64,000 nt of DNA from an uncultured Eubacteriales bacterium (lineage in GTDB: Bacteria > Bacillota > Clostridia > Oscillospirales > CAG-382), in the NCBI GenBank assembly GCA_934479825.1, contig CAKSOW010000001.1, positions 132,008-196,007 of the forward strand, in the 5' to 3' direction. Positions 4,102 through 62,272 of this stretch are shown one piece after another. The position numbers and the translations under genes were made by a program. The notes under the pieces are model-generated. The model saw only the letters and a list, made by a program, of their open reading frames with translations. It searched no databases and had not been told where the DNA came from. Within the stretch, counting starts at the first letter, position 1. Each line of letters opens with the position of its first letter.

Positions 4102-4420
4102 GGGAACGCGGCTTTTCGAAGGGGTACGCGGCTTTTCTTAGAAGAAAAGCCTGGCAAAAGAATTTAAATTTTAACGCGCGGCGGTTTGAATACTCAAAAC
4201 CGTCGCGCGTTCTCTTAGTTAAAGATAAAGAATTAGAGATTGAGGTGCGAATTTTTGGAAATTGCTAAAAAACATGCTTAACTTTTATAATATAATTTCA
4301 CTAAGAATAAAAGGCTCCCCGGCGATTTGAGAACTCAAATTGCCGGGGTAAAAATCAAATTCTTTTGTCCCACTTTTCTTTTAAGAAAAGTGGGCGAGGT
4401 TTAAGGGCGAGCAGCCCTTG
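4102..4420. repeat. Composite palindromic intergenic element, copy A (dimeric: inverted module, about 105-nt AT-rich core, direct module)
   Basis: Hairpins at 4130..4151 (GGCTTTTCTTAGAAGAAAAGCC), 4174..4210 (ACGCGCGGCGGTTTGAATACTCAAAACCGTCGCGCGT), 4317..4348 (CCCCGGCGATTTGAGAACTCAAATTGCCGGGG), 4369..4394 (CCCACTTTTCTTTTAAGAAAAGTGGG) and 4402..4419. Spacers CAAAAGAATTTAAATTTT and AAAAATCAAATTCTTTTG are reverse complements of each other. Lies between two convergent gene 3' ends. Confidence 0.85.
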
Positions 4421-12851: not shown

Positions 12852-14867
12852 TCAGGCGTTTGTAAACTCTCTCGCTTCACCGAGAACCGTGAAAGAGCGC
12901 AGATCACTTAAAACAAAAGCTTTGATCTTTGCAATTTTTCCGTCAGAGTTGAAAAATTCAGAACCCAAGGAAATTGTCTGACCGAGCGCCGGATCGGCGT
13001 ACAGATAGCGCGTATTCAACATCCGTCCGTTCACATCATATGTTGCAATAAGTATCGAACACGACCCGGTGTAGGTGTTGTTGGTGAGAGTCACTTCGGC
13101 GATGAAATCGCTGGCCGGAATCGATGAAATCGGCTCATAAGCAGTTGTTTTGAGAGTGATAGCGGAAAGGGTAACTTGGTCAACATCGGGCACGGAAGCA
13201 AAATGAATTGTGGCAGAGGTGAGACATTCGTTATCGGAACCAATATTTATTTTATTCCACTCGTCCTCGGTTCCTGCATAGTAGACATCTTTAATACTGC
13301 TGCCTTTCGTTGTGATGCAATAATCAAAAGCTCCGTCACATATTTCTGTTACACTTCTTGGAATCGTAACAGATGTAAGACTGGTACACCCACTAAAAGT
13401 ATCTTCGCCAATACTCTTAACGCCGTTTTCGATAATAACCGTTGCAAGTTTATCACAACTGCGAAAGGCAGAATTGCCCAAGCTGGCCACAGTACCGGGG
13501 ATGGTGATACTCGTGAGATTTGTGCATTCCTCGAAAGCCCACCATTCAATGCTTGTTACACTGTTCGGTATAGTTATATTTGTCAGCCCGGTACAATGGT
13601 AAAAAGCATTATTTTCTATGCTTGTCACACTGTTTGGTATGTTTATATTTTTCAGACCGGTGCAATCATAAAAGGTTGAATCGCCAATATTCATTATACC
13701 GTCCGGAATAGTTACACTTACAAGATTGGCACAACCGGAAAAAGCGGATCCTTCAATGCGTTTTACACTCAATGGGATATTATAACTTTTTGCAGAATTG
13801 CCGGCAGGATATTGAATTAGTTTTGTTTTATCTTTATCGAATAATACGCCATAATCATCGTTTGAATAGTCGGGGTTATTTTCATCAACTGTGATACAAG
13901 TTAAATTGGGACAGTTAACAAAAGCTCCCAGTCCAATACTTGTCACACTGTCCGGTATAGTTATACTTGTAAGTCCGTCGCAACCGGCAAAGGCTGCATA
14001 GTCAATATTCGTTACACTGTCCGGTATGGTTATGCTTGTCAAACCGGTGCAATAGGAAAAAGCTTGGTGTCTTATTTTAGTAACACTATCCGGAATGACA
14101 ATGCTTTTTATACTTTTTAAACCCAAAAACGTATAACCCTTGATTTCAGTAATATTATCCGAAAGAATTATATCTGTCTGTTTTACTCCGTTTACATATA
14201 ATTCAATAACGTCATGTCCAGGATAAATATTACAATAAAAAGGTGAAGAATTGTAAGAATAAAAATCAATTTTGCACCACGCGTCAAGGTCTGTAATATT
14301 TACAGAAGAAAGATTTGAGCATTTGTCAAAAGGATTGTACCCTATACTTATCACACTATCCGGGAAGGTAATGCTTGTAAGGCCGGTGCAATAACAAAAA
14401 GCATAATCTCCTATACTTATCACACTGTCAGGTATGGTTATGTTTGTAAGACCGGCGCAATTCTTAAAGACAGAATCGCCGATGCTTGTTATGCCGTTTC
14501 CCAAAGTAAGATTTGTGAGATTGCTGCAACCGGAAAATGTGGAACGACCTATATTGGTTACACTGTCCGGAATAGTAGCGTTTACAAGATTTGTGCAATC
14601 TGCAAAGGCAGAATTGCTAATCCGCGTTACACCGTCTGTTACAATAACTGTAATAATCTGCTCTTTGTAAGAATCCCACGAAGAAGTGCTATTACTCATA
14701 TAGCCTTGTCCGCTAATTGTCAACACGCCGGTTTCCGTATTCAATTCCCAAGTGACATTATCCCCGCTTGCTCCGCAATTACCAGACAACACTTCTGCGT
14801 TTACGCCGCAGGTCATCACAACGGCAAATAACAGAATGGTGCATAGAACTCCAAAGATTTTCTTCAT
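12852..14867 (-). CDS. Secreted BspA-type leucine-rich-repeat surface protein
   Basis: Likely start MKKIFGVLCTILLFAVVMTCGVNA at 14867 after an AAGGAG RBS. About 20 tandem units of about 23 aa of the type IPDSVTSIGxxAFxxCxxLTSITIP. C-terminal non-LRR domain. Confidence 0.9.
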   Translation of the reverse strand: MKKIFGVLCTILLFAVVMTCGVNAEVLSGNCGASGDNVTWELNTETGVLTISGQGYMSNSTSSWDSYKEQIITVIVTDGVTRISNSAFADCTNLVNATIPDSVTNIGRSTFSGCSNLTNLTLGNGITSIGDSVFKNCAGLTNITIPDSVISIGDYAFCYCTGLTSITFPDSVISIGYNPFDKCSNLSSVNITDLDAWCKIDFYSYNSSPFYCNIYPGHDVIELYVNGVKQTDIILSDNITEIKGYTFLGLKSIKSIVIPDSVTKIRHQAFSYCTGLTSITIPDSVTNIDYAAFAGCDGLTSITIPDSVTSIGLGAFVNCPNLTCITVDENNPDYSNDDYGVLFDKDKTKLIQYPAGNSAKSYNIPLSVKRIEGSAFSGCANLVSVTIPDGIMNIGDSTFYDCTGLKNINIPNSVTSIENNAFYHCTGLTNITIPNSVTSIEWWAFEECTNLTSITIPGTVASLGNSAFRSCDKLATVIIENGVKSIGEDTFSGCTSLTSVTIPRSVTEICDGAFDYCITTKGSSIKDVYYAGTEDEWNKINIGSDNECLTSATIHFASVPDVDQVTLSAITLKTTAYEPISSIPASDFIAEVTLTNNTYTGSCSILIATYDVNGRMLNTRYLYADPALGQTISLGSEFFNSDGKIAKIKAFVLSDLRSFTVLGEAREFTNA

Positions 14868-43514: not shown

Positions 43515-43545
43515 CACTCGTTTTTCTTAATTTTCATTATAAGCG

Positions 43546-43630
43546 GACGCGCGGCGGTTTTGAGTATTCAAACCGCCTTGCGTCAAAAAATTAAATTCTT
43601 TTGCCGGGCTTTTCTTCTAAGAAAAGCCGC
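43546..43630. repeat. Monomeric copy (D) of the palindromic repeat module
   Basis: H1 GACGCGCGGCGGTTTTGAGTATTCAAACCGCCTTGCGTC (43546..43584), spacer AAAAAATTAAATTCTTTTGCC, H2 GGCTTTTCTTCTAAGAAAAGCC (43607..43628), tail GCATTCCC. Confidence 0.85.
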
Positions 43631-43646
43631 ATTCCCTTACTACGTT

Positions 43647-49675: not shown

Positions 49676-49910
49676 CCCCAGTGATTTGAAAATTTAAATC
49701 ACTGGGGTTTTTGTTTTTCGTTAAGATCGATAATTTTGTGCTTAATTACAGCAACAGGCGAAGTGCGTTCGTCAACACTTCACATTCCTATTTCTGAATT
49801 TTCATCTTAATCAAGAGAACGCGCGGCGGTTTGAATTCTCAAAACCGCCGCGCATCAAAAACTAAATTCTTTTGCTAAGCTCTTCTTTAAACAATAAGAA
49901 AAGCTGCGTT
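49676..49910. repeat. Composite palindromic intergenic element, copy C (diverged dimeric copy)
   Basis: Hairpin CCCCAGTGATTTGAAAATTTAAATCACTGGGG plus T-run (49676..49720). The core ends in TTTTCATCTTAATCAAGAGAAC as in copy B. H1 GCGCGGCGGTTTGAATTCTCAAAACCGCCGCGC (49821..49853), spacer ATCAAAAACTAAATTCTTTTGC, degenerate H2. Confidence 0.75.
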
Positions 49911-52017: not shown

Positions 52018-53067
52018 ATGAAAAATGTGAAAAACACCTCCAAACGTCTTGCGCTTGCTTTTCTTGCCGTTGCCCTTACTGCGACTTTGCTTGTTTCTCT
52101 CGTTGCCTGCGGAAGTAAGGCCTATTACGATAACTCGGATTATTTGATGGACACTTCCGAAAGTCCAGGCTCTCCTTCCGGCGGTGCGGAGGCAAAAAGC
52201 TCCCGTGATTATAACGGTAACTACTCTTTTGGCACTAGGGCTGAAAATTACTATGATTCCGACGGAGCCGCTATGGAATCGGAAAGTCAATCCTCTCTTG
52301 CCGAACAAGCAGAAACTGCGCGAAAAATCATTTACACCTCCTATTTCAGCGTTCAGACGACGGAATTTGATCAAGCAGCCGCCGCGCTTGACCGCTTATG
52401 CGAAAAATACGGCGCTTACTATGAACGGTCAGATACCTACGGATACGCCGATGAGGGAAACCGAAACGGTTCTTTTACCATTCGCGTACCGGCGGACAAA
52501 TATCAAGCGTTTCGCACCGAGGCCGGAAATATCGGAACAGTGGTGCATTCAACCGAAAACAACGAAGACGTCAGTGAACGGTATTTCGATACCGAAGCGC
52601 GCTTGTCCAGCGCCAAGCTCCGCGAAGAGCGGTTATTGGACATTTTAAGCAAAGCAGAAAGCCTCGACAATGTGCTCCTTTTGGAATCTGAACTTGCCGA
52701 TGTTCGTTATGAGATTGAAAGCCTTTCCGGAACGCTACGCCGCTATGATTCGTTGATCAGCTATTCCACCGTCAATATCGATTTGCAGGAGGTCTTTAAA
52801 CCGATTGCGGTTCAGACAATGCCCAAAACGTTTGGCGAGCGGATTTCGCAGGCTGTATCAAACGGATTCCGTGACTTTGGCAATACCATGGAAGATTTTG
52901 CGGTGGATGTTTCGTATGGGTTACCGGGCATCTTGCTGTTTGTGATTTTTGTGGTCATTTTGGTTATTGTTATCCGAGTTATTATCAAAAAAGCCGGAAA
53001 AAAGGCGAAAAACAAAGCAAAGCCGGAAATTCCGGCCGAACAGCCAAAGAACGATGATAGCAAATAA
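52018..53067 (+). CDS. DUF4349-like lipoprotein with C-terminal TM anchor
   Basis: Lipobox LVACGS, low-complexity linker, FTIRVPADKYQAFRTE..., coiled-coil region, C-terminal GILLFVIFVVILVIVIRVII. Confidence 0.7.
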   Translation: MKNVKNTSKRLALAFLAVALTATLLVSLVACGSKAYYDNSDYLMDTSESPGSPSGGAEAKSSRDYNGNYSFGTRAENYYDSDGAAMESESQSSLAEQAETARKIIYTSYFSVQTTEFDQAAAALDRLCEKYGAYYERSDTYGYADEGNRNGSFTIRVPADKYQAFRTEAGNIGTVVHSTENNEDVSERYFDTEARLSSAKLREERLLDILSKAESLDNVLLLESELADVRYEIESLSGTLRRYDSLISYSTVNIDLQEVFKPIAVQTMPKTFGERISQAVSNGFRDFGNTMEDFAVDVSYGLPGILLFVIFVVILVIVIRVIIKKAGKKAKNKAKPEIPAEQPKNDDSK

Positions 53068-53081
53068 GGCTGTGCACTGGG

Positions 53082-53380
53082 TAAGGGCTGCTCACCCTTA
53101 AACCTCGCCCACTTTTCTTAAAAGAAAAGTGGGACAAAAGAATTTGATTTTTTGTCCCCGCCATTTGAATTCTCAAATCGCCGGGGACTTTTTATCTTAG
53201 TGAAAATGAAAAAATGTACTATTTTAAAAGTGAGGCATGTTTTCCAACAATTCGCACCACAATCTCCCAATTTTTCATCTTTAATCAAGAGAACGCGCGG
53301 AGGTTTTGAGTATTCAAACCGCCGCGCGTTAAAACTAAATTCTTTTGCCAGGCTTTTCTTCTAAGAAAAGCCGCGTTCCC
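53082..53380. repeat. Composite palindromic intergenic element, copy B (reverse complement of copy A)
   Basis: Hairpins at 53108..53133 (CCCACTTTTCTTAAAAGAAAAGTGGG), 53156..53186, 53292..53330 (AACGCGCGGAGGTTTTGAGTATTCAAACCGCCGCGCGTT) and 53351..53372 (GGCTTTTCTTCTAAGAAAAGCC). By hand, the reverse complement aligns to 4102..4420 over its full length with a few indels in the core. Confidence 0.85.
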
Positions 53381-53395
53381 TAACAACGTCTCCCT

Positions 53396-54001
53396 TTAAT
53401 CCAATTCAATCCTTTTATCTGCAACGCTCTCCGCTTCGGCACGGTCATGCGTTACCCAAAGCACCGTCTTTCCTTTGCATTTTTTAAGAATATAGGAGGC
53501 AACTAACTTTTTGTTATCCTCGTCCAATCCGCTTGTCGGTTCATCGAGAAACACAAAAGCGCTGTCACATAGCATCGCACGCAAAATAGCAACGCGCCGT
53601 TTCATTCCTCCGCTGAGAGAAGAAACAGGCTTGTTCAACAACGTTCGCTCCATCCCGACCTCTTCAAGCATATCGCCAAGATCGGAACGTGCAACTTTTT
53701 CGACAAGTCTTAAATTCCGGTAAACCGTAACATTTTCAACAAGCCGGTTTTCCTGAAAAACGAAAGCGATTTTTGCATTTTTGTCCGGAATACCGACCAC
53801 TGTTCCGCTATCCGGCTTGATAAGGCCGGCTAACAAATAAAGTAACGTCGTTTTTCCGCAACCGGATTCGCCCATTAAGCACGTAACCGCATTATCCGGA
53901 ATTTTGGCGCAAAAATCCGCTAGAACCGCCTTTTCATCAAAGGACTTCGAGAGGTTTTCAATCACAATCGACACCGGCTCACATCCTTTCAAACAGCGCA
54001 A
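53396..54001 (-). CDS. ABC transporter ATP-binding protein (NitT/TauT-type importer)
   Basis: Walker A GESGCGKTT, signature LSGGMKRR, Walker B VFLDEPTSGLD. Start uncertain (ATG 54001 or GTG 53974). Confidence 0.85.
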   Translation of the reverse strand: MRCLKGCEPVSIVIENLSKSFDEKAVLADFCAKIPDNAVTCLMGESGCGKTTLLYLLAGLIKPDSGTVVGIPDKNAKIAFVFQENRLVENVTVYRNLRLVEKVARSDLGDMLEEVGMERTLLNKPVSSLSGGMKRRVAILRAMLCDSAFVFLDEPTSGLDEDNKKLVASYILKKCKGKTVLWVTHDRAEAESVADKRIELD

Positions 54002-57382: not shown

Positions 57383-59200
57383 TTAATCTTCATCGAATTT
57401 GAGCACTGCCATAAACGCCTCTTGCGGCACTTCGACACTGCCGAGCGAACGCATACGCTTTTTACCCTCTTTTTGCTTTTCGAGCAGTTTCTTCTTACGC
57501 GTGATATCGCCGCCGTAGCACTTGGCAAGCACGTCTTTGCGCAAAGCTCTCACCGTTTCACGGGCGATAATCTTGCCGCCGATAGCCGCCTGAATCGGAA
57601 TTTCAAACAACTGGCGCGGAATGTTGTCCTTTAACTTTTCGACAATTTTTCTTGCACGCGCATAGGCCTTGTCCGCATGAACAATAAACGACAGCGCGTC
57701 GACAATATCGCCGTTTAGCAGGATATCCAGCTTCACAAGTTTGGACGGCTCATAGCCGGCCAAATCATAGTCAAGCGACGCATATCCCTTGCTTTTGGAT
57801 TTGAGCGCGTCGAAAAAGTCGTAGACAATTTCGTTTAACGGCAGCGTGTAGTGAAGTTCGGCGCGATTGGCGTCGATATATTTCATATCCTTGTAAATGC
57901 CGCGGCGATCCTGACAAAGTTCCATAATGCCGCCAACGTATTCAGTCGGCGAAATGATACTCGCTTTGACAACCGGCTCGCTGACCGTTTCCACTTCATC
58001 ACCGGTCGGAAATTTGGTGGGGTTATCGATATAATATTCCTCACCGCTGCGCAAATTGATCTTATAGATAACACTGGGGGCGGTGGTAATCAAATCAAGG
58101 TTGAATTCACGCTCCAAGCGCTCTTCCAGAATTTCCATGTGCAAAAGTCCCAAGAATCCGCAGCGGAACCCGAATCCGAGCGCAACCGAGGTTTCCGGCT
58201 CATAGGTAAGAGCCGCGTCGTTGAGCGCTAACTTTTCAAGCGCGTCGCGTAAATCGCCGTATTTCGCACCGTCAGCCGGATAAATGCCGCTGAACACGAC
58301 CGGAAGAGCCTTTTTAAAGCCCGGGAGCGGCGTTTCCGTCGGATTCTCCGCACCGGTCACCGTATCGCCGACACGCGTATCACCGACCGTTTTGATAGCC
58401 GCCGTAATATAGCCGACTTCCCCGGCATGCAGATCCGGGCATTTGTGCAAACCGAACGGGTCGAGAAAACCGACTTCGGTCACTTCGTATTCCACACCGG
58501 TGGACATCATTTTGATTTTATCGCCTGCTTTGACGTTTCCGTCGTAAAGGCGGATATAGACCACAACGCCGCGATAGGAATCGTAATAAGAGTCAAAGAT
58601 CAGCGCTTTGAGCGGCGCATGAATGTTGCCTTTGGGCGCAGGAACGTGTTTGACGACCTGAACAAGCACATCTTCAATATTCGTACCGGCTTTGGCCGAA
58701 ACCGCCGGAGCTTCGTCAGCAGGAATTCCGATAATATCTTCAATTTCTTTGCGTGTGCCCTCAATATCGGCAGACGGCAAATCGATTTTGTTGATAACGG
58801 GAATGATTTCGAGGTTATTGTCTACGGCAAGATAGGCGTTGGCAAGCGTCTGCGCTTCAATGCCCTGGGTCGCGTCCACCACGAGCAGAGCGCCCTCACA
58901 GGCGGAAAGCGAACGGGAAACTTCGTAGTTAAAGTCAACATGGCCGGGCGTATCGATCAAATTGAACGTATATGTCTCACCCTCATAGGTGTAGTTCATT
59001 TTTACGGCGCGCGCCTTGATTGTGATACCGCGCTCACGTTCCAGCTCCATGTCATCAAGCATCTGATCTTTGGATTCGCGAAGTTCAACCGTATTGGTTC
59101 GTTCCAGAATGCGGTCGGCCAGAGTCGATTTGCCATGGTCGATATGGGCGATAATGCAGAAATTCCGTATATGCGATAAATCTCGTTCGTTGATGGGCAT
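57383..59200 (-). CDS. lepA: Translation elongation factor 4 (LepA)
   Basis: [34 protein letters not shown], and the C-terminal LepA-specific domain. Confidence 0.97.
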
Positions 59201-59238
59201 ATGATTCCGTCCTTTGCAAAATAAAACATATATAATGT

Positions 59239-59267
59239 ATTATAATACATTTTGCGCCCGAAATCAA
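59239..59267 (-). promoter_or_regulatory. Putative lepA promoter (TTGATT-N17-TATAAT)
   Basis: On the minus strand, TTGATT is at 59267..59262 and TATAAT at 59244..59239, about 38 nt upstream of the lepA ATG. Confidence 0.5.
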
Positions 59268-59276
59268 GTACCCAGA

Positions 59277-59299
59277 CAAAAAAGTTCCTTAAAGGAACT
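59277..59299 (-). terminator. Weak intrinsic terminator just upstream of the lepA promoter
   Basis: AGTTCC-TTAAA-GGAACT hairpin followed on the minus strand by TTTTTT. The stem is short (6 bp). Confidence 0.35.
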
Positions 59300-59307
59300 C
59301 GAATGGT

Positions 59308-59377
59308 GCTTTTCGTTTCGCGAAAAACAGAAAGAGACGGTTTTTGTGTTACTTTTTCGCTTGTACGAAAAAGTAAC
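59308..59377. repeat. Left arm of a 70-bp imperfect inverted repeat (two hairpins) flanking a gene-less 885-bp segment
   Basis: GCTTTTCGTTTCGCGAAAAACAGAAAGAGACGGTTTTTGTGTTACTTTTTCGCTTGTACGAAAAAGTAAC. By hand, close to 90 percent identical to the reverse complement of 60263..60334. Confidence 0.8.
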
Positions 59378-60262
59378 CAAAAAGTACACCAGAGGGTTGC
59401 GACCCTCTGGATACCCCAAGTACGGTTCAAACCCCGTGCGGTAAATTTTTTGCTAAAAACTTGAAAGGTTCAGCACGTTAAGATTTTTTGCAAAAGCTTA
59501 TTAGTGCCGCAAACACGCACGGCCATGTTTTGAACCGGTGCGAACCGCAAGTGTTGCACAGGCGCAAAATCGGGGTTCACGAAAAATCGAAAGTACTGTG
59601 CAGGCTTGCCGCCGCAAGCACTTGACTAAAAGGGAAAGTGCGCGTTATACTTGTTGCAGTGGAAAAGGAAAATTGTGTAGGCGTAGTAGAAAGTTTTGTG
59701 CAAAGCTGCGGCTTGGGCGCACCAATACCCCGCGGACAGGCAAAAATTTTAGATTTATCCAAATATTTTCGTGTTCAGAAAGACGGAATTTTGCACTCTC
59801 TCACCAAACTTCCTTATTTCAAAAAACAGCTTTCTGTTCTCACAAAAACAAATTCCTACCAAACGCCCCATTTCCTGAAACACATAACCTACTGTCTACC
59901 CAAATCAAAGTTTGCCTTTATATAAACACCCACAAATCCTTGCGCAGTAAAACCGCCGTCTCGCACCGGTTCAAAATACTCCGAGCTATATTGCACAAAA
60001 CGGCGATTTTCTATAAAGATTTCCTGAAAGCGCATAGCTTGCGGTTTAGTAAAAACTTCCACGCTCGAAATTTTGAACCGAGGTCGCAGGGCAAAGCCGA
60101 CTCCTTGAAACATGGTCGTCTTGTTCGCGTCCGCTCACAATACTCCCTGTTTCGGCGGTCTCCGACACGCCAAAACTTGCCACCGCAACTTTTGACGCGT
60201 CCGAGCAGCTGCTTTTTGGTTCTTTTTGCAGAAGCAAAAAGAACATAAAAACGTCCCTTTTA

Positions 60263-60334
60263 GTTACTTTTTCGTACAAACGAAAAAGTAACTAAAAAAT
60301 CGTCTCTTTTCTTGCTTTTCGTGAAACGAAAAGC
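60263..60334. repeat. Right arm of the 70-bp inverted repeat
   Basis: GTTACTTTTTCGTACAAACGAAAAAGTAACTAAAAAATCGTCTCTTTTCTTGCTTTTCGTGAAACGAAAAGC. Confidence 0.8.
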
Positions 60335-60368
60335 GTTCTTTCCGGGCATTTCCGGAAAAGCAAAAGCC

Positions 60369-60452
60369 GCCCTGCGTCACAGAACATTTCGTGACGCAGG
60401 GCGCCAAAATCAAAATTCTTTTGCTCGGCTTTTTCTTCTAAGAAAAGCCGCG
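60369..60452. repeat. Monomeric copy (F) of the palindromic repeat module with a completely different H1 stem
   Basis: H1 GCCCTGCGTCACAGAACATTTCGTGACGCAGGGC (60369..60402), spacer GCCAAAATCAAAATTCTTTTGCT, H2 CGGCTTTTTCTTCTAAGAAAAGCCG (60426..60450), tail CGTTCCCC. On the minus strand, H1 is followed by GGCTTTTGCTTTT and probably terminates the XRE gene. Confidence 0.8.
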
Positions 60453-60478
60453 TTCCCCCCTTTACAAGGGGCATACTT

Positions 60479-60817
60479 TCACTCTACGCCGCAGGCCCTG
60501 AAATAGGCATGCAGAATATCGGAAAGCCCGGCCGCCTGCTCCGGCGACAGCTTGCCAAACGCATCGTGAAACTCGGTTTCCACTGTGTCCGGCGAAACGC
60601 CGAATAAAAGATAATCGGCACTGACATGCAACGCTTTGCAAATAGCAACCAAACGCGGCAAAGATACACCATACAAACCACGCTCAATATTGGAAATATG
60701 AGCTCCATTGCAAACGTCTATCAGTTCGGCTAAACCTTCTTGCGAAATATTTCTTTTTAAACGAATTTCTTTTACTCTTTCACCAAAAGCAGCATTAAGA
60801 ATCTGGTCTTTTTGCAT
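60479..60817 (-). CDS. XRE-family helix-turn-helix transcriptional regulator (112 aa)
   Basis: FGERVKEIRLKRNISQEGLAELIDVCNGAHISNIERGLYGVSLPRLVAICKALHVSADYLL. GAGGTG RBS. Confidence 0.9.
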   Translation of the reverse strand: MQKDQILNAAFGERVKEIRLKRNISQEGLAELIDVCNGAHISNIERGLYGVSLPRLVAICKALHVSADYLLFGVSPDTVETEFHDAFGKLSPEQAAGLSDILHAYFRACGVE

Positions 60818-61552: not shown

Positions 61553-62272
61553 TTACCCCTTGTTATAATACTGATAGCGATAGCGGTCGTACCGGTAATT
61601 CTTCCCTTTTCCCTCGGTGTTGGTGAGGATAAAGCCAAGCACCTTTGCATTTGCCTTTGCAAGGCTTTCCATGGTGTTATCAAGCATATCGTAAACGGTA
61701 TAATCCGCTTTTACGACTACCACAACGCCCGACGCCACAGCGGAAACAACAACGGCATCGGTTACAACCGAAACCGGCGGCGTATCGAGAAAAATATAGT
61801 CATATTCCGTTTTCAACCGTTCAATCAAAGCGGCAAAGCGTTCGGAGGTAAGAATTTCCACCGGGTTCGGCGGAATTTCACCGGCTGTGATGAGATCTAC
61901 GCCTTGCTTGATATTCTTTTGCAGGATATCTTCATATTCCGCATAGCCGCAGACATAGTTTGACACGCCTGCCGTAAGCTCCAATTTCAGATAACGGTTG
62001 ATGCGCGGTTTGCGAAGGTCGCAATCAACCAAGGCCACCCGTAAGCCGGCTTGGGCAAACGTTACGGCAAGATTGATGCTGTTTGTGGTTTTTCCCTCAT
62101 TCGGGATGGAAGAAGTTATCACAATGACCTTGCCCTCATCCGATTTAGGCAAGGAAAACATAATATTGGTGCGGATTGATTTATAAGATTCGGTACGTGC
62201 AAAATCAGCAAAAGAATCGTTCAGAATGAGAGAATTCTCCGAGATTTTCTTGCGCGTCTTATTCTGCGTCAT
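61553..62272 (-). CDS. CpsD/CapB-family bacterial tyrosine kinase (BY-kinase) of an exopolysaccharide locus
   Basis: Walker A SSIPNEGKTT, Walker A' VALVDCDLRKP, Walker B IFLDTPP, C-terminal tyrosine cluster YRYDRYRYQYY. Confidence 0.9.
   Translation of the reverse strand: MTQNKTRKKISENSLILNDSFADFARTESYKSIRTNIMFSLPKSDEGKVIVITSSIPNEGKTTNSINLAVTFAQAGLRVALVDCDLRKPRINRYLKLELTAGVSNYVCGYAEYEDILQKNIKQGVDLITAGEIPPNPVEILTSERFAALIERLKTEYDYIFLDTPPVSVVTDAVVVSAVASGVVVVVKADYTVYDMLDNTMESLAKANAKVLGFILTNTEGKGKNYRYDRYRYQYYNKG

What the first reader, a model, noticed from the sequence alone, without database searches (positions are those of the whole stretch)
59308..60334. Gene-less 1-kb segment bounded by 70-bp inverted repeats between lepA and an XRE regulator
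The 1.28-kb interval 59201..60478 has no convincing ORF, which is unusually long for this otherwise tightly packed window. Its centre (59378..60262, 885 bp) is flanked by imperfect inverted repeats of about 70 bp. Each arm is built from the same two hairpins (CTTTTCG-N5-CGAAAAG and GTTACTTTTTCG-N6-CGAAAAAGTAAC). Further hairpins lie outside the arms: 59389..59410 CCAGAGGGTTGCGACCCTCTGG, 60218..60244, 60341..60356, and module F at 60369..60452. The interior contains a TTGACT-N18-TATACT promoter-like motif on the plus strand (59622..59651). A weak minus-strand terminator (59277..59299) lies just before the lepA promoter, so something here may be transcribed. Possibilities are a non-autonomous mobile element (MITE/PATE) or its cargo, a large structured ncRNA, or a decayed gene.
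Basis: seen in the sequence. Interest (0 to 1): 0.65.

Follow-up and report, generated by a model that had tools for sequence, protein, structure and literature searches.

The report
High-copy non-coding palindromic repeat element
The gene-less kilobase between lepA and the XRE regulator is one copy of a hairpin-rich, non-coding repeat found at least about 20 times in this uncultured gut Clostridia genome, most likely an old non-autonomous mobile or mosaic element rather than a gene, a known RNA or a switch.

Summary
Window 59201-60478 has no credible gene, and inverted arms 59308-59387 and 60253-60334, each built from the same two hairpins, bound the interior.

The segment is not unique. A 20-mer from its interior hit 22 contigs of one metagenome assembly of the same species, all at about 7-8x coverage. 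That gives roughly 27 full or partial copies, 66-82% identical to each other. A second, more distant lineage also carries several copies.

It has three layers:
- Outer arms are arrays of a ~47-nt AT-rich palindrome-plus-linker unit.
- Inner arms hold four CGGTTCAAAA sites in alternating orientation, forming nested palindromes.
- The ~420-bp centre has short conserved blocks but no conserved fold.

The tests found:
- no 3-nt periodicity of variability;
- no real protein family;
- no Rfam match;
- no conserved promoter;
- no inverted-orientation contigs;
- no neighbouring transposase.

One sub-module (60086-60206, minus strand) is nearly identical among copies and shows compensatory base-pair changes between lineages.

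Best reading: an old, non-autonomous foldback/MITE-like mosaic repeat, comparable to REP/BIME and NIME arrays. It is a target for IS30-family insertions and possibly for rearrangement. It is a new variant of a known kind and moderately interesting.

The parts
59282..59300 (-). Flanking hairpin GAGTTCCTTTAAGGAACTT followed by a T-run. It is terminator-like on the minus strand and sits between the element and the lepA promoter candidate (59267-59239, minus).
   Evidence: sequence
59308..59387 (.). Left outer arm. It holds hairpin 'e' (59308-59328), the linker AAAGAGACGGTTTTTGT, and hairpin 'a' GTTACTTTTTCG-CTTGTA-CGAAAAAGTAAC (59348-59377). It is the inverted repeat of 60253-60334. In other strains an IS30-family element sits in the loop of hairpin 'a'.
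59389..59422 (.). Type-A inner-arm module: hairpin CCAGAGGGTTGCGACCCTCTGG plus a spacer leading to S1. In most family copies this module is present in inverted form at both ends.
59423..59441 (+). Site S1 (CGGTTCAAAC, family consensus CGGTTCAAAAC) plus the extension CCGTGCG, which is complementary to 59516-59522.
59442..59514 (.). ~75-nt segment enclosed by the S1/S2 inverted pair. It contains the conserved block TTGAAAGGTTCAGC..TTAAGATTTTTTGCAAAA.
59515..59543 (-). Site S2 (TTTTGAACCG, 59528-59537) with the left extension CGCACGG-CCATG and the right extension GTGCGA. The segment 59528-59543 is a perfect 16-nt inverted repeat of 59961-59976.
   Evidence: (I7)
59544..59960 (.). Central non-palindromic segment. 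Short blocks are conserved across copies and across both lineages (TGCACGTTA, CATAACCTACTGTCC, TCCTTACGCAGTAA). It shows no coding signal and no conserved secondary structure. The part 59376-59782 is the stretch that differs strongly between strains.
59961..59986 (+). Site S3 (CGGTTCAAAA, 59967-59976) with the 5' extension TCGCAC, which pairs with the S2 side, and the 3' extension TACTCCGAGC, which pairs with 60063-60068.
60063..60080 (-). Site S4 (TTTTGAACCG, 60071-60080) with the extension GCTCGGAAT.
60086..60206 (-). 'B-long' sub-module. It replaces the type-A hairpin in this arm. It forms two hairpins on the strand that reads inward (the minus strand here). Its sequence is about 94-100% identical among copies within a lineage and about 86% identical between lineages. 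Three base pairs changed on both sides and four changed between G-C and G-U; none is broken.
60213..60334 (.). Right outer arm. It holds hairpin 'c' (60219-60244), hairpin 'a' (60263-60292) and hairpin 'e' (60314-60334), joined by AAAA-(C)GTC-TTTT linkers. Tandem Repeats Finder sees a 47-nt period over 60236-60332.
60341..60466 (.). Outer hairpins that also recur at the edges of other copies: CCGGGCATTTCCGG (60341-60356) and 'module F' (60368-60403 plus 60428-60448). Module F is a separate repeat also found at four other places in the window. Its first hairpin is terminator-like on the minus strand, downstream of the XRE gene.

Best explanation
The segment is one copy of a lineage-restricted, high-copy, non-coding dispersed repeat of about 1-1.3 kb with a foldback (nested-palindrome) architecture.

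**Shown:**
- The family has at least about 20 copies per genome.
- It does not encode a protein.
- It matches no known RNA family.
- It carries no conserved sigma-70 promoter.
- Its copies fill intergenic regions, mostly next to gene 3' ends.
- Its outer arms are variable arrays of a ~47-nt palindrome-plus-linker unit.
- Its inner part carries four copies of one 10-nt site in the order > < ... > <.

**Inferred:**
- The family spread in the past by a transposition-like or recombination process. A protein supplied in trans probably recognises the CGGTTCAAAA sites and/or the hairpins.
- The family is now old. Its modules have been reshuffled among copies by recombination.
- At this locus it acts as passive DNA: a spacer between the XRE terminator and the lepA promoter, a preferred landing site for IS30-family insertion sequences (inside hairpin loops), and a likely substrate for rearrangement.
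- The embedded ~110-nt B-long module is a separate, younger or more constrained unit that folds on one strand.
For: **Copy number.** The 20-mer ACGGCCATGTTTTGAACCGG hit 24 metagenome stretches. Of these, 22 come from one assembly (ERZ857757), all at about 7-8x coverage. That assembly also holds the orthologous XRE locus (L011 = L034). BLAST maps about 27 full or partial copies at 68-94% identity. One GTDB MAG carries three copies. A second lineage carries several copies at 59-70% identity (L047, L052, L053).

**Non-coding.**
- The variability across 28 aligned copies shows no 3-nt periodicity.
- The 236-aa ORF finds only 37 small clusters without Pfam domains, mostly on short contigs. These are spurious ORFs in other copies.

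**Not a known RNA.** There are no Rfam matches at the gathering thresholds and only noise at permissive E-values.

**No conserved promoter.** The best position is shared by 6 of 28 copies.

**Architecture.**
- The order and spacing of the four S sites are the same in every copy.
- Each neighbouring pair of sites has its own extra complementarity.
- In the second lineage all four sites read CGATTCAAA instead, a coordinated change expected for a site read by one protein.
- The arms are arrays of palindromic units whose number and type vary between copies.

**Age and reshuffling.**
- Paralogues are 66-82% identical (median 75%), and none exceeds 83%.
- The left and right arms of one copy are no more alike than arms of different copies (0.72 against 0.72).

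**Genomic context.**
- Of 15 copies, 6 lie between convergent genes, 8 between tandem genes and 1 between divergent genes.
- Neighbouring genes are housekeeping genes.
- Relatives with LepA 93-94, 91 and 87% identical have no copy upstream of lepA or within 15.8 kb, and a different upstream neighbour.

**IS30 targeting.** An IS30-family transposase 3' end abuts the split loop of hairpin 'a' in L004, L005 and L007. A similar IS end abuts another hairpin loop in L024.
Against: **Mobility is not demonstrated.**
- No empty site, target-site duplication or insertion polymorphism was found.
- No two copies at different loci exceed 83% identity, so there is no sign of recent movement.
- No transposase with matching ends was found near any copy, or in the plasmid and phage collections.

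**Some features suggest more than neutral decay.**
- About 25 old paralogues have kept full length, the same architecture and short invariant blocks. This is more than neutral decay of dead transposon copies would predict, and it hints at host-level or sequence-specific constraint.
- B-long shows strand-specific compensatory changes, which a purely double-stranded DNA element does not explain.

**Limits of the sampling.**
- The metagenome copies were chosen by an exact 20-mer in the S2 block. The invariance of that block is therefore partly by construction, and the copy number is only a lower bound.
- The outer boundaries of the element could not be fixed.
Confidence: 0.6

Rival explanations
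1. A host-maintained DNA element. The copies would be binding platforms for a chromosomal protein (nucleoid-associated, gyrase-like, recombinase or partition-type) that reads the CGGTTCAAAA sites and the conserved central blocks. They would be kept because they organise DNA or insulate neighbouring genes, as proposed for REP/BIME elements.
For: - The paralogues are old (66-82% identical), yet they keep full length, constant site spacing and short invariant blocks.
- All four sites changed together in the second lineage.
- Copies avoid divergent-promoter intergenic regions.
- There is no strand bias in arm mismatches, so the palindromes act as double-stranded DNA or on both strands.
- No transposase is linked to the copies.
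Against: - No candidate binding protein was identified.
- Close relatives (LepA 87-94% identical) lack the element near lepA. It is therefore not a conserved requirement of the locus.
- The family has a patchy, lineage-restricted distribution, and arm composition varies widely. Both are more typical of selfish repeats.
Confidence: 0.2
2. A family of non-coding RNA genes, or RNA elements that act when transcribed. Here the core, or at least the B-long module, would be the functional product and the arms would serve as processing or stabilising hairpins.
For: - B-long has 37 predicted pairs that are 100% paired in 11 copies. Three pairs changed on both sides, four changed between G-C and G-U, and none is broken. 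Slid controls give 0 compensatory pairs.
- The wobble pairs work only on the inward-reading strand.
- B-long folds better than shuffled sequence on that strand (z = -2.4) than on the opposite strand (z = -1.0).
- B-long is about 94-100% identical within a lineage, while the rest of the element is 66-82% identical.
Against: - There is no Rfam family.
- There is no conserved promoter in 28 copies.
- The consensus fold energy of the 413-column centre is only -2.1 kcal/mol (plus strand) and -3.7 kcal/mol (minus strand).
- The long-range helices found in the core are the invariant S sites themselves, with little covariation.
- The B-long covariation rests on only two lineages.
- B-long is present in only some arms.
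Confidence: 0.12
3. An invertible (phase-variable) segment. A site-specific recombinase would flip the interior between the inverted arms, or between S2 and S3, switching a promoter towards lepA.
For: - Inverted repeats flank the interior.
- A perfect 16-nt inverted pair flanks the centre (I7).
- A promoter-like site lies inside.
- Many contigs end at the arms.
Against: - Every assembly that spans or enters the interior has the same orientation as the window (L001, L002, L003, L008-L013).
- All 28 paralogues have the centre in the same orientation relative to their arms.
- The promoter-like site is not conserved.
- The contig breaks are explained by the repeats and by IS30 insertions.
Confidence: 0.03
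4. A decayed protein-coding gene, for example a dead transposase, between the arms.
For: - A 236-aa open frame exists.
- Gene callers annotate ORFs of 162-216 aa at this position.
Against: - There is no 3-nt periodicity.
- ORF lengths and frames differ between strains, and 45- and 52-nt indels occur.
- The only homologues in 5.8 billion proteins are ORFs without Pfam domains in other copies of the repeat.
- There is no DNA match in plasmids or phages.
Confidence: 0.02

Closest known systems
MITEs (miniature inverted-repeat transposable elements) of bacteria
   Same: - Non-coding, with terminal inverted repeats.
- Many dispersed intergenic copies.
- Lineage-restricted.
- Can fold back on itself.
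- No transposase of its own.
   Different: - It is about 1-1.3 kb, whereas MITEs are usually under about 0.5 kb.
- The arms are long, variable arrays of palindromic units rather than one short defined inverted repeat.
- No target-site duplication, parent IS or recent copies were found.
- Copies are much more diverged (median 75% identity) than typical active MITE families.
REP/BIME elements of enterobacteria and CGTC/GTAG-tagged REPs (PMC3733652, PMC3333891)
   Same: - Short extragenic palindromes are clustered in arrays.
- Copies are located mainly at gene 3' ends.
- The linker between units carries GACG, which is CGTC on the other strand.
- Specific insertion sequences land in the hairpin loop. 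From my own knowledge, IS1397 does this in E. coli REPs.
   Different: - The units here are AT-rich, with 12-bp stems extended by T- and A-runs. The described CGTC REPs have 8-9-bp stems and were not reported in Firmicutes.
- The arrays flank a ~650-bp conserved core, which has no REP/BIME counterpart.
- No RAYT (REP-associated tyrosine transposase) could be sought.
Neisserial intergenic mosaic elements (dRS3/RS arrays; PMC1797815)
   Same: - Intergenic mosaics are built from palindromic units separating other repeat modules.
- The number and order of modules differ between copies and strains.
- IS elements insert opportunistically.
- They are associated with recombination and with divergence of the flanking sequence.
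   Different: - NIME modules are 50-150 bp, and dRS3 is a 20-bp unit.
- NIMEs have no overall two-fold symmetry.
- NIMEs have no four-site nested palindrome.
- There is no sequence similarity.
Foldback (FB) transposons of eukaryotes (from my own knowledge, not tested here)
   Same: - Long inverted arms are made of tandem arrays of short units whose number varies between copies and between the two arms.
- The arms surround a central 'loop' that may be non-coding.
   Different: - FB elements are eukaryotic.
- No homology is known, and no shared transposase is known.
- The resemblance is architectural only.
PATEs and IS200/IS605-type elements
   Same: - Subterminal hairpins are present.
- A single-strand-specific fold is seen, but in the B-long module only.
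   Different: - IS200/IS605 ends are not inverted repeats of each other and act on one strand. Here the ends are true inverted repeats, and the arm hairpins show no strand bias.
- No Y1 transposase, TnpB or omega-RNA was found.

Membership tests
MITE | Terminal inverted repeats | tested here: met
   The window arms are 57 nt at 88% plus 30 nt at 83% complementary. In canonical copies the arms reach 97 nt at 98%.
MITE | Many dispersed copies in one genome | tested here: met
   There are about 27 full or partial copies on 22 contigs of one assembly at uniform coverage.
MITE | No coding capacity | tested here: met
MITE | Small size (tens to a few hundred bp) | tested here: not met
   S1 to S4 alone spans 540-720 bp, and the whole unit is about 1-1.3 kb.
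MITE | Target-site duplication and filled-versus-empty sites | tested here: inconclusive
   The outer boundaries vary between copies. All strains sampled at this locus carry the element. Relatives lack it, but they also have a different upstream gene.
MITE | A parent insertion sequence with the same ends | tested here: inconclusive
   None was found among the genes next to copies, or in plasmids and phages. The rest of the genome could not be searched.
REP/BIME or CGTC-tagged REP | Short palindromic units, extragenic, clustered in arrays | tested here: met
REP/BIME or CGTC-tagged REP | Conserved GTAG or CGTC tetranucleotide at one end of each unit, 8-9-bp stem, 4-5-nt loop | tested here: inconclusive
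   The GACG/CGTC motif is present in the linkers. However, the stems are 12 bp or longer, AT-rich, with loops of 4-6 nt. For the published definition.
REP/BIME or CGTC-tagged REP | Associated RAYT (Y1) transposase | not testable with these tools
Known large bacterial RNAs (OLE, GOLLD, ROOL, HEARO, raiA) and all other Rfam families | Match to the family covariance model | tested here: not met
Invertible promoter (inverton) | Both orientations present in populations | tested here: not met
   Only one orientation is seen in all assemblies and in all paralogues.
Invertible promoter (inverton) | Conserved promoter inside the invertible segment | tested here: not met
IS200/IS605-derived PATE | Ends are not inverted repeats; the hairpins act on one strand | tested here: not met
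   The ends are true inverted repeats. G.T and A.C mismatches in the arms are balanced, 30 against 35.
Pseudogene | Translated similarity to a protein family | tested here: not met

The most novel reading that the evidence does not exclude
The family would be a new class of bacterial mobile or functional element built on nested palindromes with four alternating recognition sites. It would use single-stranded hairpin intermediates. The ~110-nt B-long module would be a new strand-specific structured RNA or ssDNA unit, itself mobile or catalytic, that rides inside the larger element.
Probability: 0.12. Interest if true: 0.75.

Novelty: new variant of a known kind. Interest (0 to 1): 0.5.

Why it matters
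**Practical consequences**
- The repeat explains why assemblies of this gut species break at such loci.
- It explains why gene callers emit orphan 'hypothetical proteins' of 150-240 aa there.
- It may explain why gene order differs at these points between strains.

**Biological interest**
- It adds a large, architecturally unusual repeat family to the short list of intergenic mosaic repeats. That list is so far known mainly from Proteobacteria.
- It shows IS30-family elements landing inside the hairpin loops of these repeats.
- If the four-site nested palindrome and the B-long module turn out to have a dedicated protein partner or an RNA function, this would be a new mobile-element or RNA class in Clostridia.

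Tried and rejected
- **Known RNA.** Four Rfam scans (whole window, the region, five canonical copies, and B-long alone) found nothing credible.
- **Coding.** The periodicity test and a protein search with the 236-aa ORF were negative. An all-against-all comparison of ORFs from the copies was uninformative, because DNA homology makes every frame cluster. Stop-free coverage was also uninformative, because the sequence is poor in stop codons.
- **Large structured RNA.** A helix and covariation scan of the whole element found mainly the invariant S sites. RNAalifold on the centre gave about zero energy.
- **Internal promoter.** None is conserved.
- **Inversion switch.** No alternative orientation was found.
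- **Partner transposase.** There is no recurrent protein near copies. A Pfam scan of 97 neighbouring ORFs showed housekeeping genes and only two integrases, which lie 4-8 kb from the nearest copy.
- **Plasmid, phage or viral origin.** No matches were found.
- **Strand bias in the arm hairpins.** None.
- **Concerted evolution of the two arms of one copy.** None.
- **Gene conversion as the source of the strain-variable patch.** No donor was found among the sampled copies. Import of a divergent allele by recombination is the simpler explanation.
- **Chance hit.** L046 was a chance 20-mer match inside a coding region.
- **Literature.** Searches for a described equivalent in Clostridia found none.
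Full report
**1. Observation**

The interval 59201-60478 lies between the start of lepA (57383-59200, minus strand) and the stop of an XRE-type regulator (60479-60817, minus strand).

The inverted arms are real. Arms 59331-59387 and 60253-60309 are 57 nt long and 88% complementary. Arms 59308-59337 and 60305-60334 are 30 nt long and 83% complementary. The hairpin GTTACTTTTTCG-N6-CGAAAAAGTAAC occurs only at 59348-59377 and 60263-60292 in the 64-kb window, and never in shuffled sequence. The other hairpins, the promoter-like site at 59622-59651 and the minus-strand terminator-like hairpin at 59300-59282 are also present.

A 236-aa GTG ORF runs through the interior (59538-60248, plus strand). Gene callers annotate versions of 162-216 aa in related assemblies, none with a Pfam domain.

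**2. Not a gene and not a known RNA**

- Across 28 aligned family copies, the variability shows no three-base periodicity in any 120-column window.
- A search with the 236-aa translation against 5.8 billion proteins returned only 37 small clusters without Pfam domains, mostly on short contigs. These are the same spurious ORF called in other copies.
- Rfam gave no match at the gathering thresholds in the whole window.
- Rfam gave only noise at permissive E-values in the region, in five loci with canonical copies, and in the B-long module alone.
- No sigma-70-type promoter is conserved.

**3. It is a high-copy repeat**

- The organism is an uncultured human-gut Clostridia bacterium, and identical loci occur in several gut metagenomes.
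- The inner hairpin pattern found three copies of a homologous ~1-kb element in one GTDB MAG.
- A 20-mer from the interior (ACGGCCATGTTTTGAACCGG) hit 24 metagenome stretches. Of these, 22 come from one assembly (ERZ857757), all at about 7-8x coverage. That assembly also contains the orthologous XRE locus (L011 = L034).
- BLAST and site mapping give about 27 full or partial copies in these contigs, at 68-94% identity to the window copy. This is a lower bound, because only copies with the exact 20-mer were fetched.
- One hit (L046) was a chance match in a coding region.
- A second, more distant lineage carries several copies that are about 79% identical to each other and 59-70% identical to the window type (L047, L052, L053).
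- Nothing similar is present in the viral contigs or in the plasmid and phage collections.

**4. Anatomy**

*Outer arms.* These are arrays of AT-rich palindromes, such as GTTACTTTTTCG..CGAAAAAGTAAC, GTTCTTTTTGC..GCAAAAAGAAC and GCTTTTCG..CGAAAAGC. Linkers of the form AAAAG-GACG-TTTTT join them. The number and type of units differ between copies and between the two arms of one copy. In the window's right arm, Tandem Repeats Finder sees a 47-nt period. GC-rich hairpins and 'module F' often lie further out. Module F is also a free-standing repeat at four other places in the window.

*Inner arms.* Each has a hairpin module followed by a 10-nt site. The module is either type A (CCAGAGGG..CCCTCTGG) or type B. 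In every copy the sites have the order S1 >, < S2, S3 >, < S4, with spacings of about 103, 390-500 and 70-105 nt. In the window they lie at:
- S1: 59423-59433
- S2: 59528-59537
- S3: 59967-59976
- S4: 60071-60080

Each neighbouring pair has its own additional complementarity:
- S1 with S2: CCGTGCG / CGCACGG
- S2 with S3: GGTGCGA / TCGCACC
- S3 with S4: TCCGAGC / GCTCGG
- S4 with S1: the arms themselves

The core is therefore a nested palindrome. In the second lineage all four sites read CGATTCAAA, and the S1:S2 extension has a different but still complementary sequence.

*Centre.* The central ~420 bp has short blocks conserved in both lineages: TGCACGTTA, CATAACCTACTGTCC and TCCTTACGCAGTAA. 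It has essentially no conserved fold. The RNAalifold consensus energy is -2.1 kcal/mol (plus strand) and -3.7 kcal/mol (minus strand) over 413 columns.

**5. The B-long module**

In the window's right arm the type-A hairpin is replaced by a ~120-nt module (60086-60206, read on the minus strand).

- The module is present in only some arms.
- It also occurs at other positions: inside the core in L020, and fused to the S2 flank in L028.
- It is about 94-100% identical among copies of one lineage and about 86% identical between lineages. The rest of the element is 66-82% identical within a genome.
- It folds into two hairpins. All 37 predicted pairs are intact in 11 copies. Three pairs changed on both sides and four switched between G-C and G-U. 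Slid controls give no compensatory pairs.
- The wobble pairs exist only on the inward-reading strand. That strand folds better than shuffled sequence (z = -2.4) than the opposite strand does (z = -1.0).
- This evidence rests on only two lineages.

**6. Evolution and context**

- Paralogues in one genome are 66-82% identical in the core (median 75%). No pair at different loci exceeds 83%, so nothing indicates recent movement.
- The two arms of one copy are no more alike than arms of different copies. Arm-hairpin mismatches show no strand bias, with 30 G.T against 35 A.C. Both fit an old family whose modules have been exchanged between copies at the DNA level.
- At this locus, another strain (L009 / L011) is 100% identical over 59101-59375 and nearly so over 59783-60600. 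It is only 63-88% identical over 59376-59782, with indels of 45 and 52 nt. No donor paralogue was found, so a recombinational import of a divergent allele is the simplest account.
- Of 15 copies with both flanks available, 6 sit between convergent genes, 8 between tandem genes and 1 between divergent genes. They fill intergenic regions of about 1.0-1.3 kb.
- Neighbouring genes are ordinary housekeeping genes. No transposase is adjacent, and two integrases lie 4-8 kb from the nearest copy.
- Relatives with LepA 93-94, 91 and 87% identical have no copy upstream of lepA or within 15.8 kb. They also have different upstream genes, although the downstream gene order is largely kept.
- In three assemblies an IS30-family element is inserted in the loop of the left inner hairpin. 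A similar IS end abuts another hairpin loop in L024.
- In L011 the sequence to the left of the inner hairpin belongs to a different chromosomal region, on the holB side. This is either a rearrangement or an assembly chimera through the repeat.
- Many contigs end at the arms.

**7. Explanation**

*Shown:* this is a copy of a high-copy, non-coding, nested-palindromic dispersed repeat.

*Inferred:* the family spread by a transposition-like or recombination process that depended on a protein supplied in trans. That protein would recognise the S sites and/or the hairpins. The coordinated change of all four sites in the second lineage fits a single reader protein. The family is now old and has been reshuffled.

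At this locus the copy is probably passive. It separates the XRE terminator (60403-60368, minus strand) from the lepA promoter candidate (59267-59239, minus strand). It also attracts IS30 insertions.

Rival explanations:
- A host-maintained protein-binding DNA element (about 0.2). The retention of full-length, diverged copies with invariant blocks argues for some constraint.
- An RNA gene family (about 0.12), driven almost entirely by B-long.
- An inversion switch (about 0.03).
- A pseudogene (about 0.02).

**8. Comparison with known systems and novelty**

The element works most like a MITE/foldback repeat, and its arms resemble REP/BIME or neisserial NIME arrays (PMC3733652, PMC1797815). It fails or cannot be tested on several defining features of each:
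- It is too large for a MITE, and no duplication or parent IS was found.
- Its units do not fit the published GTAG/CGTC REP geometry, and those repeats were not reported in Firmicutes.
- Its ends are true inverted repeats, unlike IS200/IS605-type elements.

I found no description of an equivalent in Clostridia. I rate it a new variant of a known kind. The four-site nested palindrome and the B-long module are the parts that could prove to be new.

**9. Limits**

- The whole genome was not available.
- Copies were ascertained through the S2 block.
- Element boundaries are not fixed.
- No expression data were available.

Noticed in passing
window 4122-4234, 43540-43645, 49813-49894, 53269-53389, 60368-60466: 'Module F' is a separate dispersed repeat. 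It consists of a GC-rich hairpin, the spacer AAAA.TAAATTCTTTTGC, and the hairpin GGCTTTTCTTCTAAGAAAAGCC. It occurs free-standing in the window and at the outer edge of many copies of the large element. It may act as a bidirectional terminator cassette.
   Followed up: partly
L004 1-125, L005 1-31, L007 1-125 (equivalent to window 59363/59364); L024 1-60: In other strains an IS30-family insertion sequence sits inside the loop of the left inner hairpin. Its transposase C-terminus is EDIADIVFKINSRPRKCLGWLSPFESFYNLLLHLT. A related IS end abuts the loop of another hairpin type in L024. These palindromes therefore seem to be preferred IS30-family targets.
   Followed up: partly
L011 11423-11600 compared with window 59201-59340: In assembly ERZ857757 the element is joined on its left to a different chromosomal region (DNA_pol3_delta2 / holB side) instead of lepA. 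The breakpoint lies within the hairpin array. This is either a real rearrangement through the repeats or an assembly chimera.
   Followed up: partly
window 59376-59782: This stretch is only 63-88% identical between strains whose flanks are 100% identical. It also carries a 45-nt extra hairpin and a 52-nt deletion. It is the most divergent stretch in the 13.5 kb compared.
   Followed up: yes
window 52801-53000, 53401-53700, 53901-54000, 62101-62200: Between the window and strain L009 there are patches of 88-93% identity in an otherwise 98-100% identical background. This suggests frequent homologous recombination in this species.
   Followed up: no
window 13533-14465: Six copies of a 69-nt direct repeat (61-75% identical) are arranged as three adjacent pairs. 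This is probably a repeat-domain coding region. It was not examined.
   Followed up: no
window 1-64000: No Rfam family reaches its gathering score anywhere in the 64-kb window. There is no tRNA, riboswitch or leader.
   Followed up: no
L047 5340-6720 and 9839-10700; L052 7514-8656; L053 777-2557: A second lineage (ERZ28754618, GCA_965643355.1) carries the same element family, with the site variant CGATTCAAA and its own outer hairpin types (for example CGAGGTT.TGCAAACCTCG). In L047, two copies lie within 12 kb.
   Followed up: partly
arms of many copies, e.g. L023 12720-12775, window 59360-59390: The 4-6 nt that follow the A-run after the innermost palindrome are always complementary to that palindrome's loop. 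The pairs seen are TGTAC/GTACA, GGCGTG/CACGCC, CTGC/GCAG and TCTGC/GCAGA. This covariation between loop and downstream sequence is unexplained.
   Followed up: no
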